Assembly (NCBI GenBank): GCA_012026655.1 | Contig: JAAILG010000780.1 | Coordinates: 1-64,000, forward strand | DNA length: 64,000 nt | Origin: Hydrolagus affinis | Lineage: Eukaryota | Direction of reading: 5' to 3' | Shown here: in pieces, positions 18,001 through 27,000 of the stretch | Position numbering within the stretch: position 1 is the first letter of the stretch | How the letters are laid out: every line of letters starts with the position of its first letter | Position numbers: made by a program

Positions 18001-21000
18001 GTCTCAAGTATCCAAGTACCCATTCCATCCATATGATCCTGAGCAACAAACCTCATCATAGCTCAGGGATATGGAACCAACACCCCCGCTCAGATCCGTA
18101 ACCATTGGCAGTCAGGCTTTCAGCCAAGAAGAGCAATTGCCCATCAAGGAAGTTCACCAATTGGTATTATCGCAGGATTTGCATGAAGATCATGAAGTGA
18201 ATGGTTGCAGTTGAGTGTTTATTGCGGTCTAATCTGTGCTGATTTCTAACGACATTCCTTCGAAAGGACTAGGCGGCAAACGGTGAGATAACCAAAAGTA
18301 CGGCAAACAGACCTATGCAAACACAACTCTGTAAACAAAGTGGAGAGTCGGAGCAGAGTTCCTGTGGGTAATTGTGGTCTAATTCCACTTACCAGAAGGA
18401 ATCTCCATTTGAGATTTGGAACCATGTCAGTAAATTGTAAACCGTCATCTTTCAATGAAGATCGGAGATTGCTGCAATATTTAGAGTCAACTTCAGTCGC
18501 ACAGCAGCTTGGAATCGAAATTGGACAGGACAATACCGAAGGCTTGGAGAGCACAAAAGGGATAGCGATAGTCCATACTAAACTCATTCTCAGCAACCTT
18601 TCCAAATTGCATCAGAATATTATTCGCTAAAGTGAGAAACAAGAGGAAGTGTAAGTCACAGTTCAAAATCCATCTGTACATTGGCAACAGTTTCAGTGAA
18701 TCCACCTGAGAATCACTGTGTAAACATGCTTACTGCTGTTTGAACAGTACGTTACAAAGGACTTGCCCAGCTCTGTCTCTGACTTAGTGACTTGTTCGTG
18801 AGTTTGGGGCCGCAGGCCATCCACCACTCCCATCAGTTCCATGCACTTTGGATTTGAATTTTCTCTGTCCTTGCCCATACTGTTGATATGAGATATGACA
18901 GCTCTCATATCAACAGTGAATGAAGCAACAGAGTGAAGTATGCACAAATATTTGAGTTTATGCAGTGCTTTTCACATCAGGAGGATATCACAAGGCACTG
19001 GACTATTGGGTCTGGATTTGGGAGGAGAAAAAGATGACAACAACAATGATTTTAATTTATATAGCGCCCTCTATGCCAGACGGCGTCTCAGAGTGCTTCA
19101 TAATAAAGGATCCCAAAGGCTTGGTCAAAGAGGAAGGTCTTGAGACAGACGTTGAGGGAGATGAGGGAAGCAAATGAGGTGAATGGACTCTGAGATAAGA
19201 GTTCAAAAGAGTGAAAGCAGATAGGCTAAAAGCCTGACTGCCAATGGTGGGTTGGGCAAGAGGTATGAAGCAAGCCAAAGGAGACAATTATATTAGATTG
19301 TGGCAGATCTTTCAATCCCACATTTTTTCCATCATCCTTCAATAAAAGTCAAGTAATAGCTATGTTTAATGGGAAGAGCCCCTTTTGAGACATCCTCTCT
19401 TTATACAGAGATTGTCCAACGCACGGTATCATCCTCCTGAATTGACACTGCACCCATCTCATATTCACCACTTCACTCACGTTCTGAGTGCTGGATTATC
19501 TGGAAGTTTTTCACCGATGGTTTCTTAACCCGGCCCTGGAAGTTGAGGATGAATCCTTTGGCCTTGTTGTTCCATATGGGAGGATTATTGTGGAGTTCCA
19601 GGAGCCCTTGTCGATACTGTGCTCGCCACCTGCTGAGAATGCTCTCACTCGCCTATTAAAAGAGGTTACATTTTCTTCAGTAAAGCAAATTGTATTCAAA
19701 TATCTGTGACACAAAAATGAACTGGATGTGACTGAACTTTCACTGGCCACAGTTTTTCTGACAGTGGAGCATTTCATTGCATTTGCAATGTGAACTGTTC
19801 CCAACATGTCCCCTTCCTGAACTGAACAACCACCCACTCCCATCTCCAGTTCTCCCATATCATCTTATGGTTACTTCTCACATGTTACACACCACTGCAG
19901 CACATCAAAAGGATTGCGACTGACTCTGTGGCCAGCCACTTAATCAAGCAAAGTCCCATAAAAAGCCATAATAATATTGTGATAATAATAATCCTTACAT
20001 TTGGTATAACGACTTTCACGACGGAAAAGTGCATCACAGGATATATTGTAAAGTGGTGTGACTGTATGTTTTATGAGCAAACACTGCAGCCAATTTGTGC
20101 ACAGCAATATCCTGCAAAGCCATCAAGAAACTGACTAATATCATCTGGGGGATTGGTAGTCAGGAGACTTGGAGAAACTCCCTTATCCTGCACCATGGGT
20201 TCTTTAACATCCAACTGAACAGGCAAACATATTTCTCATCAGAAGAACAGCACCTGCAATGATGTGACCTTCCCCAGAGGGTTTATGAGGCACTGGACTT
20301 TCCTTTTATAATAATGCTGCTGCATTTGATATTGTGGAGTATCACCGTCATTGTGACGTCTCAAAGCGCTTCACAGGATATACTGTAAAGTTTGCAGCTA
20401 TGTATATTGTGAGTGAACTTTCCTTTAAGTAGCTGAATAAAGAGGGATTTTTAATGAGAGGATTAATGCCACAGGCCTTTCTTTTGGTGATTATTCCACT
20501 CACATTAAAATTATCTTCTTATCAACTGAGTATCCTCAAAAAATTGTGGCAGAGATGAAACAAGTCACATTTTTAAAAAATATATACAAGTTGATCTTAC
20601 AAGGTACATAGTTAGCCAAGAAACGTGATCAGTATTTAGGGTTCAATTGATTAACAGCTAAATATTTTCCTTACATCCCGAGGTTGGACTGCGATCCGCT
20701 TCCTTGTCTCATCCATTCCCGGAAGGATCACAGTGATTTTTCGAGGTCCTTGGAATCCAAACACATTTACATCCTGGTAGACACAAACAAACAACAGTGT
20801 ATTGAGAGATTAGTATTCTTTCACACTATACCGACTGAGCAGCCAGTGTGCTATAATGCATCTTGCAACTTTGTTCTTTAAAATATCTCCAATTTTCCTT
20901 CCCTTCTAAATTCCACTAACCCTAAAAGAAAAAAAGTATGCCAACGTCTTTTTTTAAAAAAAACAAAGGCACGCATGCCCCTTTAAATAAAAACCCTGAA

Positions 21001-24000: not shown

Positions 24001-27000
24001 ATAGTCCAGCCTGAATGTTATGCATGAATATATGAGAGTTTTGGCAGCTGACAATGTAAGATAGTGGCCCCCAAGAGATGCCCTTCTGAAATGAGAGATG
24101 CTAAGTATTACTATTATCAGTATCAGATCCACATAACCACTGGTGTAACCACTGAAAGCTCAGGATACAACAAAAGTAAAGAAATTAATGGGTGCCAAAC
24201 ATACTTGTTCACTGCCTTCTCTTTCCAAATACAGGTAGTAAGTTGTCCGGAATAATTTTTTCCGTCTCTTGATCATGCATTGAATGATAGTGACTCTTCC
24301 TGCTGGGCACGACACAAACTCCTGCAGGCGATCAACAGTCAGTTCACATGGACCATCCAGATCCAGAAAAGCAGCTGTAGACTGAATTCGAGAGGAAAGA
24401 GGTCAGACTGAGGAATGTTCCAACACCTAATCGGGCTTATTTTTTTAAAAAAAATCTTTAATTAAGAGAGGAATGAAATCGGGAGAGTGGGACTAAATTG
24501 CTAAATGTGGCTATATTATGATCCTCTGTAAATTTTTCTGGGCACTCACGGCTTCAGGAGAAAGTTCTTTGCATCCACAATGGGTAGCGATCATTTCCAA
24601 CTTTGTGGCCGGATCTCCTAAGGTGGAAACAGAAATGATAAGAAGCGATAAAACTGGCCATCCAACTGCAGAAAATACTTCAATCAAAATGCACGGCTCT
24701 GTGCAAGCTTGTCAGGCTGTATTTCTAGGAGCGTTTAAGATTTAAATTTTTTTTTCTCAACATTCACAGTTCAGATGATTCAATCCAATAGGTATTATCT
24801 AATGGAATGCTTTCATTGAGAGCGAGAGAGGCAGAGTGATTTTTTCTTAACACCTTATTACATTGATGCAACAATGATATGGTGCCCCATAAGCATCCCA
24901 GACCACTCGGCAGTGGTGGAATACAATGCAGAGCCAGGGAGAGGTGACCGTAAGCATGGTTGTAAAGGAAGAATTTTGGGCTCGACCTGAAGATGGGGAT
25001 GGAGAGGACAAGATGGAGGTTTAGAGGAAGAGTTCTGCAGAGTTTTTGGGTGAAGTGGCTGAAAGAGCAGCCGCCAATGGTGGAAGAGAGGGCAAAAGGA
25101 ACAAGCAGGATTAGGGCAAGATGCTGGCTGCATTAATATACATGACATTGGTGCTCAGCGGAATTGAGAGTTGAGTTTTACTTGTATCAGTGCCGTTCAA
25201 TTCTTCACAGTGATCCACGCCAAAATTCTGCTCTATGTTTGCTGCCATTGTGTGACCGTCCACTTCATCTTCAGTGAAGAAAGCTGCAGGACCAAGGAAA
25301 CCTGGGGCCATGGGAGAGGAGGCAGAATGAAACATGTACTATTCTGAGACAAAGACTGGAGAGAAGCAAGGGAAAAAAAAGCATAGAGATACTGAATAGA
25401 GAGATGGAGATTTCACTCTCTCTGTGTGAGCCAAGGCATTTACAGGAAACCCATTCAACTGTGTGGGATACCATTAGCGTCTTGGGACGTCCTCCCAACG
25501 TTAAAGTCACTCTATAAATGAAATTTTGTTGTTGTTGTAAGTCCGACTCTGTCCTTCCCCACAAACACTTTGATCATCAGAAATAGCAACTCCCATTGTT
25601 TCCTCTCCTTCTTGGGTCATTGAGGTTGGTTGTAATGCACTAATCATCGCCTTACTCAATAATATAATAATAATAACAACAAACAACAAAATTATACTTG
25701 TATAGCACGTTTCACGTCAGGAGGACATTTCAAGGCGCTGGACAGACATTGTTTCAGACCTGAGCTGAGGTCAGGGACTGGGAGGTTGGAGGGAAAGGGG
25801 GGATTTGGAGTGACCAATGGGACCATCAAAGAGGAGGGTCTTGAGGCAGGACTTGAAGGAGCCCAGGGAGGAGGCGAAGTGGAGGAAATGTGGGATGGAG
25901 TTCCAGAGGTTGGGGGCAGAGTGGCTGAAGGCTCGCCCTCCAATGTTGGGGCGGGTGGGTTGGGGGACATGGAGTAGGCCGGAATAGGGCTTCAAATGTG
26001 AGGACTAGGATCTTGAATTGGATCCTCTGGGTGATGGGGATGCAATGGAGTCAGGCAAGCATGGGGGAGATGGAGCCACGGAGCTTGAAGTAGTAGAGAA
26101 CATAGGCCACAGAGTTCTGGATTATCTGCAACCTGTGGAGGAAGGAATTGGGAAGGCCGACAAGCGTTTGGGCATTTGCGTAGTCAAGCTGGGATGTATG
26201 AAGGCATGAATGAGTGTTTCAGTGGCCATGGGAATAAGGTAATGGCGGAATCAGGCATTATTGCAGAGGTGAGGGAAGGCAGAGTGAGTCATTGCTTGGA
26301 CGTGGTGGAGGAAAGACAGTTGAGGATCAAACAAGACACCTATGTTCCTGACTGGCTTGGTGAGGTTGAGTGTACAACCATGGAGATTAATGCTGGCAGC
26401 GCCTGATGTGTAACAATAGTAATCCTTGCATTTGATTCAGCGGCCTATCGGTTGCCGCAAAATATACAGTCAATTCACATTACACTATAATCTGTGAAGT
26501 GCTTTGAAATGTGTTGAAAACTTGATAAGGCTCTATATCAAATGCAAAGATTATTATTATTATCACGTTGAAATGTCTAAAAGCACTTCACATAATGCAC
26601 TGTAAGGTGGAATGACCATGTATTTTGTGGGCGAAACGCGCCAGCTAATTGTGCACAGCATTATCCCACAAACAGTTGTGGATTTTGAGGGGATTCTTAC
26701 CCCTGGAAAGCAACCTGCCAATCGTCTAACAACCAGGTTCCTACTTACTGCTAGGTAAACAGAGGGGTGTGAAGTAAGGAAAGTTGTCTTAAGTTTTGTA
26801 CCGGCTGAGAATTGAACTCATTTCCTCTCACTTGTGAGGTGACCAATCATTCCACTATTCCATGGGTTTGAGTAGCAACTAACTCAGATAGATTTCCTCC
26901 CTTCACTGCTAAAGGAGGTTGTTTGTATGGGTGTTGTGCGTTAGAAGGATGCTGTGATACTGATGGATCTGTAGCTGAGTGGAAAGCAGGAAGGAAATGT

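What the first reader, a model, noticed from the sequence alone, without database searches (positions are those of the whole stretch)
18493..25335. Strongly diverged but intact tubby-family gene that may be an undescribed TULP paralog
Seen: six tubby-domain exons with an open frame and canonical splice sites, mostly missed by the ORF track. Established: vertebrate TUB/TULP1/TULP3 tubby domains are highly conserved and bind PI(4,5)P2 through the GKLR Lys/Arg and the RQEL Arg; their N-terminus carries an LLEQKQ-type IFT-A-binding helix. This protein keeps GKLR, RQEL, SNY and xNP. It changes many normally conserved segments: RDKKGMDRG is shortened to RRKKLF, RKRKK becomes WKRKK, SNLMGTKF becomes ANAGGTAF, WNDDTQSYV becomes WNNKAKGFI and TQAS becomes KKPS. 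No IFT-A motif is recognisable in the 342-aa model. Inference: a fast-evolving or novel TULP that retains lipid binding but has altered surface charge and partners, perhaps a local TULP3 duplicate, since TULP3 and B4GALNT3 share human 12p13.33.
Basis: partly seen in the sequence, partly recalled or inferred. Interest (0 to 1): 0.72.

Follow-up and report, generated by a model that had tools for sequence, protein, structure and literature searches.

The report
Fast-evolved tubby-family gene, chimaera-type

Summary
The six tubby-domain exons are real. The gene has 10 coding exons on the minus strand, 30003 to 18493, and encodes 394 aa.

The only close relative found is the 393-aa 'tubby protein isoform X1' of Callorhinchus milii (P0001), 79-95% identical per exon. 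The next-best proteins are only 51-54% identical. C. milii also has a separate canonical TULP3.

P0001's branch in the ML tree is 2.06 changes per column, against a median of 0.11, and it cannot be placed. AU tests reject no grouping with TUB, TULP1, TULP2 or TULP3. Two N-terminal motifs and a few derived residues lean towards a TUB/TULP3-type origin.

The PI(4,5)P2-binding Lys and Arg are kept. No IFT-A-binding helix or Tub_N domain was detected.

Verdict: a new, lineage-restricted, fast-evolved member of a known family. Paralogy, expression and dN/dS remain open.

The parts
29948..30003 (-). coding exon 1 (start codon at 30003-30001; 18 codons plus 2 bases; donor AG|gt)
   Evidence: tblastn of P0001 residues 1-19, 15 of 19 identical; sequence read
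   Evidence: tblastn of P0001 residues 18-64, 81% identical; acceptor cag|A and donor G|gtcaga read
   Evidence: tblastn of P0001 residues 64-103, 80% identical; acceptor ccccag|GT and donor A|gtaaaa read; motif comparison
   Evidence: Open frame with cttag| acceptor and |gtgagt donor. Corresponds by position to P0001 residues about 104-125. Not found by tblastn, so this is the least certain exon.
24205..24381 (-). coding exon 5 (177 nt): start of the tubby domain, with the 4-residue deletion in the RDKKGMDRG loop
   Evidence: Pfam Tub profile 4-35; 79% identical to P0001; alignment
22894..23006 (-). coding exon 6 (113 nt): WKRKK basic patch, SNY, GKLR (Lys/Arg equivalent to mouse Tub K330/R332)
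   Evidence: Pfam Tub profile 42-78, 31 bits; 87% identical to P0001; alignment
21031..21142 (-). coding exon 7 (112 nt): ANAGGTAF, YDKG, NP, IRQEL
   Evidence: Pfam Tub profile 80-124, weak alone at 12.6 bits; 87% identical to P0001
20675..20773 (-). coding exon 8 (99 nt)
   Evidence: Pfam Tub profile 126-156; 30 of 33 residues identical to P0001
19481..19652 (-). coding exon 9 (172 nt): WNNKAKGFI, KKPS, SVKNFQI
   Evidence: Pfam Tub profile 160-211, 57.2 bits; PDB TULP1/TULP3/TUB E 3e-15 to 4e-13; 84% identical to P0001
18493..18626 (-). coding exon 10 (134 nt including the TGA stop at 18495-18493): C-terminal strands and central helix
   Evidence: Pfam Tub profile 220-256, 62.3 bits; PDB TUB E 4e-15; 41 of 43 residues identical to P0001

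Best explanation
The locus is an intact 10-exon gene on the minus strand (30003 to 18493) that encodes a 394-aa tubby-family protein. It is the ortholog of the Callorhinchus milii protein annotated as 'tubby protein isoform X1'. No closer relative turned up in any other annotated vertebrate.

I read it as a lineage-restricted paralog, probably chimaera-lineage, separate from canonical TULP3. It most likely derives from a TUB/TULP3-type ancestor. It went through a burst of sequence change and has since been kept under constraint.

Inferred mechanism: the C-terminal 12-stranded barrel still docks on PI(4,5)P2-containing membranes through the conserved Lys/Arg pocket and most of the neighbouring basic patch. 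The short N-terminus has lost the helix by which TULP3 and TUB dock on IFT-A. On this reading the protein acts as a membrane phosphoinositide reader or adaptor that is uncoupled from IFT-A, with new or fewer partners.

Shown: gene structure, family, fold of the ortholog, degree of divergence, retained and lost motifs, and the separate TULP3 in C. milii. Inferred: lipid binding, loss of IFT-A binding, origin and cellular role.
For: - Family and structure: 6 of 6 domain exons match Pfam Tub collinearly. Exons e9 and e10 match solved TUB, TULP1 and TULP3 chains.
- Fold of the ortholog: the AF2 model of P0001 has pLDDT about 80-96 over most of residues 140-390, dipping to 49-59 in two 10-residue blocks. 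It superposes on TUB and TULP1 crystal structures with TM 0.86-0.92 and E 1e-26 to 5e-31.
- Gene model: there are nine GT-AG introns, the phases are consistent, and there is no internal stop.
- Ortholog: the exon e9 search found 1 protein (P0001, 84% identical) among 4 candidates. With P0001 as query, the next-best of 1737 hits scored 325 bits against 896 for self. Among 1.84 billion cluster representatives the next-best scored 317.5 bits at 54% identity.
- Separate TULP3: C. milii P0076 has Tub (328 bits) plus Tub_N (134 bits) and sits in the starred TULP3 clade.
- Constraint after the burst: 20 of the window's 24 departures from canonical-invariant columns are the same residue in P0001. The window and P0001 differ at 4 of 84 invariant columns against 26 of 174 other columns (Fisher p 0.021).
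- Lipid site: residues equivalent to K330, R332, Y343 and four of the five basic residues 301-305 are kept (numbering from passages of PMC10445746).
- N-terminus: no Tub_N match for P0001 or window exons e2 and e3 at E<=10, and no helix-like exon anywhere in the window.
- TUB/TULP3 lean: a GxDGPAAF-type motif is present in TUB 4/6, TULP3 6/7, TULP2 1/20, TULP1 0/4, other rows 0/8, and in P0001. An EEQxPLV motif is present in TUB 6/6, TULP3 6/7, TULP2 1/20, TULP1 0/4 and other rows 1/8. Clade-derived residues shared by P0001: TULP3 4/18, TUB 2/13, TULP1 1/21, TULP2 0/9.
Against: - Placement is unresolved. The careful ML tree leaves P0001 in a polytomy. AU tests reject none of the groupings: TULP2 p 0.283, TULP3 p 0.272, TUB p 0.283, TULP1 p 0.076, elasmobranch TULP2 p 0.285, chondrichthyan TULP3 p 0.408.
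- Under strict criteria, 0 of 13 paralog-diagnostic columns are shared with any clade.
- The TULP3 lean in derived residues is not significant (4/18 against 3/43, Fisher p 0.18).
- The N-terminal motifs are short. In local-alignment tests 3 of 6 invertebrate rows also reached the 5% level.
- No canonical TULP2 of C. milii appeared among the 120 listed hits of a TULP2-profile search that listed 11 elasmobranch rows. The gene could therefore be a runaway TULP2 ortholog rather than an extra paralog.
- No transcript data, no dN/dS and no binding assay are available. One basic-patch residue is lost (R to W, or Q in P0001), and the loop next to the barrel mouth is 4 residues shorter, so lipid affinity may differ.
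- The fold and the tree rest on the C. milii protein, not on the window's own joined protein.
Confidence: 0.55

Rival explanations
1. It is the chimaera-lineage ortholog of TULP2. The ancestral TULP2 gene, still canonical in sharks and rays, underwent runaway divergence and N-terminal shortening in this lineage, so no extra paralog exists.
For: A TULP2-type clade spans sharks and rays, coelacanth, amphibians, squamates and teleosts. The 120 hits listed from a TULP2-profile search include 11 elasmobranch rows from 10 species and 0 from Callorhinchus. The AU test does not reject P0001 with TULP2 (dlnL 1.10, p 0.283) or with elasmobranch TULP2 (dlnL 3.40, p 0.285). In mouse, Tulp2 is expressed predominantly in testis (abstract start of PMC9126596 in the listing). 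From my own knowledge, not from a call, testis-biased genes often evolve fast.
Against: P0001 shares 0 of 9 TULP2-derived residues and has L where all 20 TULP2 rows have M. The two N-terminal motifs that P0001 keeps are absent from 0 of 8 elasmobranch TULP2 rows and occur in only 1 of 20 TULP2 rows, yet they are typical of TUB and TULP3. Only 120 of 3032 hits were listed, so the absence of a C. milii TULP2 from the list is weak evidence.
Confidence: 0.15
2. It is a diverged TUB: either the lineage's TUB ortholog or a TUB-derived duplicate. This matches NCBI's automatic name for the C. milii protein.
For: The source name is 'tubby protein isoform X1'. The AU test does not reject P0001 with TUB (dlnL 1.10, p 0.283). 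P0001 shares 2 of 13 TUB-derived residues. TUB carries both N-terminal motifs. A CHGN-type B4GALNT3/4-like gene lies nearby. From my own recall, human B4GALNT4 and TUB both lie on 11p15.
Against: TUB is the slowest-evolving clade here, with end branches of 0.01-0.07, so a 2.06 branch for its ortholog would be extraordinary. The motif spacing (17 residues) and the residues after AAF resemble short TULP3 forms more than TUB, where the spacing is about 65. The automatic name reflects only the best hit.
Confidence: 0.15
3. It is an old fifth paralog that branched off before or around the TUB/TULP1/2/3 split and was lost in other vertebrates.
For: Both the FastTree and the careful tree leave it outside every named clade. 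It shares 0 of 13 strict diagnostic residues with any clade.
Against: Its position outside the clades is what long-branch artefacts produce. treekit flags the row as long. It carries N-terminal motifs found only in TUB and TULP3 among the sampled clades. No relative was found in any other annotated vertebrate.
Confidence: 0.08
4. It is a decaying or non-functional copy whose open frame survives by chance in slowly evolving genomes.
For: It has lost many family-invariant residues (24 of 84). No expression data are available.
Against: Ten exons, nine GT-AG introns and 394 codons are intact here, and a full-length model exists in C. milii. The derived residues are shared between the two species (20 of 24). 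Differences between the two species avoid family-invariant columns (4/84 against 26/174, p 0.021). Conservation is uneven across exons (roughly half the residues in e4, read by eye, against 95% in e10), as expected under selection.
Confidence: 0.05

Closest known systems
Callorhinchus milii 'tubby protein isoform X1' (P0001, 393 aa; automatic NCBI annotation)
   Same: Same exon-by-exon order. Per-exon identity is 79-95%, and 228 of 261 tubby-domain residues are identical. It has the same derived motifs (RRK..L.R loop deletion, xKRKK, ANAxGTAF, WNNK, KKPS, C-terminal LLCD) and the same short N-terminus without Tub_N.
   Different: About 13% of domain residues differ, and the linker exon e4 is only about half identical. 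It therefore comes from another species, not from the window's genome.
TULP3 (for example C. milii P0076; human TULP3 in PDB 8fh3)
   Same: Same tubby domain fold. The GKLR Lys/Arg equivalent to TULP3 K268/R270 is kept. The N-terminal EEQxPLV and GxDGPAAF-type motifs are shared. It gives the highest domain identity (53%) and the most shared derived residues (4 of 18).
   Different: The helix and loop of TULP3 residues 19-54 that bind IFT-A are absent (PMC10066299 passage). Tub_N is not detected. The branch is about 19 times longer than the median. C. milii has its own canonical TULP3.
TUB (mouse and human tubby; PDB 1c8z, 1i7e, 1s31)
   Same: Best structural matches (TM 0.86, E down to 5e-31). 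The canonical PI(4,5)P2 pocket residues are kept.
   Different: The first residue of the second basic site (positions 301-305) is changed. There is a 4-residue loop deletion. 24 of 84 family-invariant columns are changed. The IFT-A helix is absent.
TULP2 sensu lato (squamate 'tubby-related protein 2', and shark, ray, amphibian and teleost relatives)
   Same: TULP2 is a faster-evolving branch of the family, with a stem of 0.15 and several internal branches of 0.27-0.29. The AU test does not reject membership.
   Different: P0001 shares 0 of 9 TULP2-derived residues. TULP2 rows keep the N-terminal RQQKL..QR.L...KQ helix and lack the two mid-N-terminal motifs that this gene keeps.

Membership tests
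Tubby family (Pfam Tub, PF01167) | C-terminal tubby domain recognisable by sequence profile over its whole length | tested here: met
   6 of 6 exons hit Tub collinearly across profile positions 4-256. The ortholog P0001 scores 269.7 bits over profile 4-256.
Tubby family (Pfam Tub, PF01167) | Fold: closed beta-barrel around a central C-terminal helix | tested here: met
   Tested on the ortholog P0001 only, not on the window's joined protein. The AF2 model shows strands plus a C-terminal helix at 375-387, with domain pLDDT mostly about 80-96. Foldseek gives TM 0.86-0.92 to TUB and TULP1 crystal structures.
Tubby family (Pfam Tub, PF01167) | PI(4,5)P2 pocket residues (mouse Tub K330, R332; TULP3 K268, R270) | tested here: met
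   GKLR is kept in the window and in P0001, and the Y343 equivalent is kept. Residue roles come from passages of PMC10445746 and PMC5350516. Binding itself cannot be tested here.
Tubby family (Pfam Tub, PF01167) | Second, basic PI(4,5)P2 site (mouse Tub residues 301-305, RKRKK) | tested here: inconclusive
   Four of five basic residues are kept. The first is W in the window and Q in P0001. The site is defined in a PMC10445746 passage.
TUB/TULP3-type IFT-A adaptors | N-terminal IFT-A-binding helix and loop (TULP3 residues 19-54) within a Tub_N domain (PF16322) | tested here: not met
   No Tub_N match for P0001 or for window exons e2 and e3 at E<=10, while C. milii TULP3 scores 134 bits. tblastn of 10 canonical N-termini against the window found no helix exon at E<=5. 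hhalign aligns only the mid-N-terminal motif, with probability 7.6%. AF2 predicts a low-confidence helix at P0001 residues 27-47 of unrelated sequence.
TULP3 orthology group | Groups with TULP3 in a tree, as the sole TULP3 of its genome | tested here: not met
   It does not group in the free tree. The AU test does not reject a grouping (p 0.272 and 0.408). It is not the sole TULP3, because C. milii has canonical TULP3 P0076 besides the ortholog. A TULP3-derived duplicate remains possible.
TULP2 orthology group | Groups with TULP2, shares TULP2-derived residues, and is the only TULP2-type gene of its genome | tested here: inconclusive
   The AU test gives p 0.283 and 0.285. It shares 0 of 9 derived residues. 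No C. milii TULP2 was among the 120 listed hits. The genome itself could not be searched.
TUB and TULP1 orthology groups | Groups with the clade in a tree | tested here: inconclusive
   TUB: AU p 0.283. TULP1: AU p 0.076, the worst fit. Derived residues shared: 2 of 13 for TUB and 1 of 21 for TULP1.

The most novel reading that the evidence does not exclude
Chimaeras carry an extra tubby paralog that other vertebrates lack. It arose from a TULP3/TUB-type gene, shed the IFT-A-docking helix, remodelled about a quarter of the family's invariant surface and core positions in a burst, and then froze. On this reading it is a neofunctionalised PI(4,5)P2 reader. It might work as a natural competitor that holds TULP3/TUB cargo or membrane sites away from ciliary transport, or as a tissue-specific adaptor with new partners.
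Probability: 0.2. Interest if true: 0.6.

Novelty: new member of a known kind. Interest (0 to 1): 0.42.

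Why it matters
Tubby domains are among the most conserved lipid-reading modules in animals, and the vertebrate set is normally given as TUB plus TULP1-4. This gene is a naturally occurring, apparently constrained copy. It keeps the phosphoinositide pocket, rewrites 24 of 84 otherwise invariant positions, and drops the IFT-A handle. 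That makes it a ready-made experiment on which positions the fold and lipid binding really need, and on what a tubby domain does when it is uncoupled from ciliary transport. It also shows that automatic names such as 'tubby protein isoform X1' can hide a distinct gene. The interest is moderate: the family, fold and likely chemistry are known, and the gene is already in an annotation.

Tried and rejected
- Tree placement: FastTree on 157 rows and a careful IQ-TREE on 55 rows left the gene unplaced. Nine of 166 rows were dropped from the FastTree run because they aligned over fewer than 200 residues. Six AU tests rejected nothing.
- Diagnostic residues: the strict screen gave 0 of 13 shared.
I named clades instead from PDB comparisons, C-terminal motifs and a profile search that returned source names.
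- Mobula 'tubby protein-like' P0075, a possible ray ortholog because of its 78% coverage, turned out to be an ordinary TULP3.
- P0124 and P0164, which appeared to align over the N-terminus, show no real N-terminal similarity.
- Local-alignment test of the N-terminal motifs: scores are borderline and 3 of 6 invertebrate rows also pass, so I treat it only as a lead.
- Atlas look-up of the 487-aa ORF next door gave no usable hit.
- Rfam found only two tRNA-like hits outside the gene.
- Paper searches for vertebrate TULP phylogeny, TULP gene-family evolution, and tubby plus Callorhinchus found nothing on this gene.
- Synteny from recalled human map positions of TSPO, TEX33, TMEM221 and B4GALNT3/4 was considered and set aside. 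It comes from memory and is mixed.

Full report
**What is there.** The window is 64 kb with one N run at 4-227, which was left untouched. I do not take it for human. Its genes and repeats are those of a cartilaginous fish, and the nearest protein is from Callorhinchus milii.

On the minus strand between 24381 and 18493 lie six exons whose translations are open. All six match Pfam Tub (PF01167) in collinear order. They cover profile positions 4-35, 42-78, 80-124, 126-156, 160-211 and 220-256, with 19.7, 31, 12.6, 17.6, 57.2 and 62.3 bits. The two last exons match solved TULP1, TULP3 and TUB chains at E 3e-15 to 1e-11.

**Gene model.** A search with exon e9 returned one protein among 4 candidates: P0001, 'tubby protein isoform X1 [Callorhinchus milii]', 393 aa, 84% identical. 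I ran tblastn with P0001 against the window and read the DNA. Together these give ten coding exons:
- e1 30003-29948
- e2 27170-27037
- e3 25301-25182
- e4 24617-24550
- e5 24381-24205
- e6 23006-22894
- e7 21142-21031
- e8 20773-20675
- e9 19652-19481
- e10 18626-18493

There are nine GT-AG introns with consistent phases. The exons sum to 1185 nt, which is 394 codons plus a stop.

Exon e4 is the least certain. It was placed by frame, splice sites and position, not by tblastn.

Per-exon identity to P0001 is 79, 81 and 80% for e1-e3, and 79, 87, 87, about 91, 84 and 95% for e5-e10.

I left out the joined step, meaning any search, fold or tree of the window's whole protein. P0001, a database protein, stands in for the full length.

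**How unusual it is.** With P0001 as query, 1737 proteins passed E<=1e-10 among 4666 candidates. The best after P0001 itself scored 325 bits against 896, at 51-53% identity, and TUB and TULP3 of all vertebrates were about equally distant. Among 1.84 billion cluster representatives, 4612 passed E<=0.001, and the best after self scored 317.5 bits at 54% identity.

In an alignment with 54 canonical domains (37 vertebrate TUB/TULP1-3, 17 invertebrate or unassigned), 84 columns are at least 95% identical. The window's exons keep 60 of them and P0001 keeps 61. Canonical rows break at most 5, apart from one odd TULP1-like representative with 13.

In a careful ML tree (55 rows, 264 columns, LG+C20 PMSF), TUB, TULP1, TULP2 and TULP3 are each well-supported clades. 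P0001 has an end branch of 2.06 changes per column against a median of 0.11, and it sits in a polytomy.

**Which paralog.** C. milii has a separate canonical TULP3 (P0076: Tub 328 bits plus Tub_N 134 bits) that groups with ray TULP3. The gene is therefore not the sole TULP3 ortholog.

A TULP2-type clade proved to be vertebrate-wide. A profile search returned squamate 'tubby-related protein 2' together with amphibian, teleost, coelacanth and 11 elasmobranch rows from 10 species. No Callorhinchus row was among the 120 listed of 3032 hits.

AU tests reject no placement:

| Grouping tested with P0001 | dlnL | p-AU |
|---|---|---|
| TULP2 | 1.10 | 0.283 |
| TULP3 | 1.12 | 0.272 |
| elasmobranch TULP2 | 3.40 | 0.285 |
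| chondrichthyan TULP3 | 1.63 | 0.408 |
| TUB | 1.10 | 0.283 |
| TULP1 | 3.68 | 0.076 |

Strictly diagnostic columns give 0 of 13 shared. With relaxed criteria P0001 shares TULP3-derived residues at 4 of 18 columns (the window at 3), TUB at 2 of 13, TULP1 at 1 of 21 and TULP2 at 0 of 9. This difference is not significant (p 0.18).

The N-terminus adds a lead. P0001 and the window keep, in the right order, an EEQxPLV-like motif (end of e2) and a GxDGPAAF-like motif (start of e3). The first occurs in TUB 6/6, TULP3 6/7, TULP2 1/20, TULP1 0/4 and other rows 1/8. The second occurs in TUB 4/6, TULP3 6/7, TULP2 1/20, TULP1 0/4 and other rows 0/8. hhalign aligns this stretch to the canonical N-terminal profile only weakly (E 0.0046 for the single comparison, probability 7.6%). 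A shuffle-controlled local-alignment test is borderline and also passes for 3 of 6 invertebrate rows.

My reading is that a TUB/TULP3-type origin is the most likely, a runaway TULP2 ortholog is possible, and the question stays open.

**Is it under constraint?** dN/dS could not be computed because no C. milii DNA is on hand. Indirect evidence points to constraint:
- Both species keep a full-length open gene.
- 20 of the window's 24 departures from family-invariant columns are the same residue in P0001, so the changes predate the split of the two species and have been held since.
- The two species differ at 4 of 84 invariant columns against 26 of 174 others (Fisher p 0.021).
- Conservation is uneven, from roughly half the residues in the linker exon e4 (read by eye) to 95% in e10.

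**How it probably works.** The AF2 model of P0001, built with 34 aligned sequences, gives the barrel and central helix with pLDDT about 80-96 over most of residues 140-390. Two 10-residue blocks dip to 49-59, and the N-terminus is disordered. Foldseek matches TUB (1s31, 1c8z, 1i7e) and TULP1 (3c5n, 2fim) with TM 0.86-0.92.

By spacing in the alignment, the window keeps the equivalents of mouse Tub K330, R332 and Y343, and four of the five residues of the second basic site 301-305. The first of those five is W here and Q in P0001. The roles of these residues come from passages of PMC10445746 and, for TULP3 K268/R270, of PMC5350516. The Arg of RQEL (R363 by my recall of Santagata et al. 2001, which I did not read here) is also kept.

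TULP3 binds IFT-A through residues 19-54, a helix followed by a loop (passage of PMC10066299). Nothing like it is found in P0001 or in the window. Tub_N does not match P0001 or window exons e2 and e3 at E<=10, and tblastn of 10 canonical N-termini finds no such exon at E<=5.

I therefore infer a PI(4,5)P2-binding membrane reader that is no longer coupled to IFT-A. Its partners and tissue are unknown. Lipid binding and the loss of IFT-A binding are inferences from sequence, not results.

**Surroundings.** On the plus strand lie TSPO exons (3969-5039) and a TEX33-like exon (11572-12009). A reverse-transcriptase fragment sits in intron 1 (27879-28157). A single-exon Toll-like receptor of the TLR1/2/6 group lies at 40237-42702. 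On the minus strand there is a Jiraiya/TMEM221-like exon (47333-47767) and a CHGN-type glycosyltransferase with exons at 49101-49250 and 50051-50212, with a long ORF at 55024-56484 close by on the same strand that matched no family. Whether it is B4GALNT3, B4GALNT4 or another member was not tested, so the synteny argument for TULP3 stands as a lead only.

**What stayed unchecked.** No RNA-seq data were available. No supplementary files were needed. Searches of the paper library found no paper describing this gene. That library misses most subscription journals.

**Verdict.** This is a real, intact and strongly diverged tubby-family gene. It is shared with the elephant shark, is distinct from canonical TULP3, and has no detectable IFT-A handle. 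It is a new member of a known family. Its exact paralogy, expression and function remain to be shown.

Noticed in passing
window 40237-42702 (+): Single uninterrupted 822-aa ORF with leucine-rich repeats and a TIR domain. The best solved matches are the TIR domains of TLR15/TLR2, TLR6 and TLR1 and the TLR2 ectodomain, so it is a Toll-like receptor of the TLR1/2/6 group.
   Followed up: partly
window 3969-4199 and 4734-5039 (+): Two exons matching Pfam TspO_MBR (profile 2-55 and 46-96): a TSPO-type translocator protein gene.
   Followed up: partly
window 11572-12009 (+): ORF whose end matches the start of Pfam TEX33 (27.5 bits, just above the cut-off), a testis-expressed gene family, about 6.5 kb from the 3' end of the tubby gene.
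   Followed up: no
window 48400-56500 (-), exons 49101-49250 and 50051-50212, long ORF 55024-56484: Glycosyltransferase exons matching CHGN and Glyco_transf_7C, with a 487-aa acidic, poorly conserved ORF nearby on the same strand that matched no Pfam family and gave no Atlas hit. The arrangement looks like a B4GALNT3/4-type gene; which paralog it is was not tested.
   Followed up: partly
window 47333-47767 (-): ORF with a weak match to Pfam Jiraiya (TMEM221 family; 21.8 bits, below the cut-off).
   Followed up: no
window 27879-28157 (+), inside intron 1 of the tubby gene: Fragment matching the RNase H-like domain of reverse transcriptases (29.7 bits), a retroelement remnant. Several introns also hold repeated SINE/LINE-like ORF fragments that recur across the window.
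   Followed up: no
window 54202-54274 (-) and 1067-1138 (-): Two tRNA-like Rfam matches (49.1 and 43.6 bits). They may be tRNA genes or tRNA-derived SINE heads.
   Followed up: no
P0124, P0278-P0312 and other rows (not in the window): Genes of the TULP2 clade in sharks, rays, amphibians and teleosts carry a mix of automatic names ('tubby protein homolog', 'tubby protein-like', 'tubby-related protein 3-like', 'si:dkey-220f10.4'). They nevertheless form one well-supported clade with squamate 'tubby-related protein 2'. On this sampling TULP2 appears to be vertebrate-wide rather than mammal-specific.
   Followed up: partly
window 8458-8810 and 59300-60250: Low-complexity, microsatellite-like stretches that produce long spurious ORFs in several frames.
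   Followed up: no
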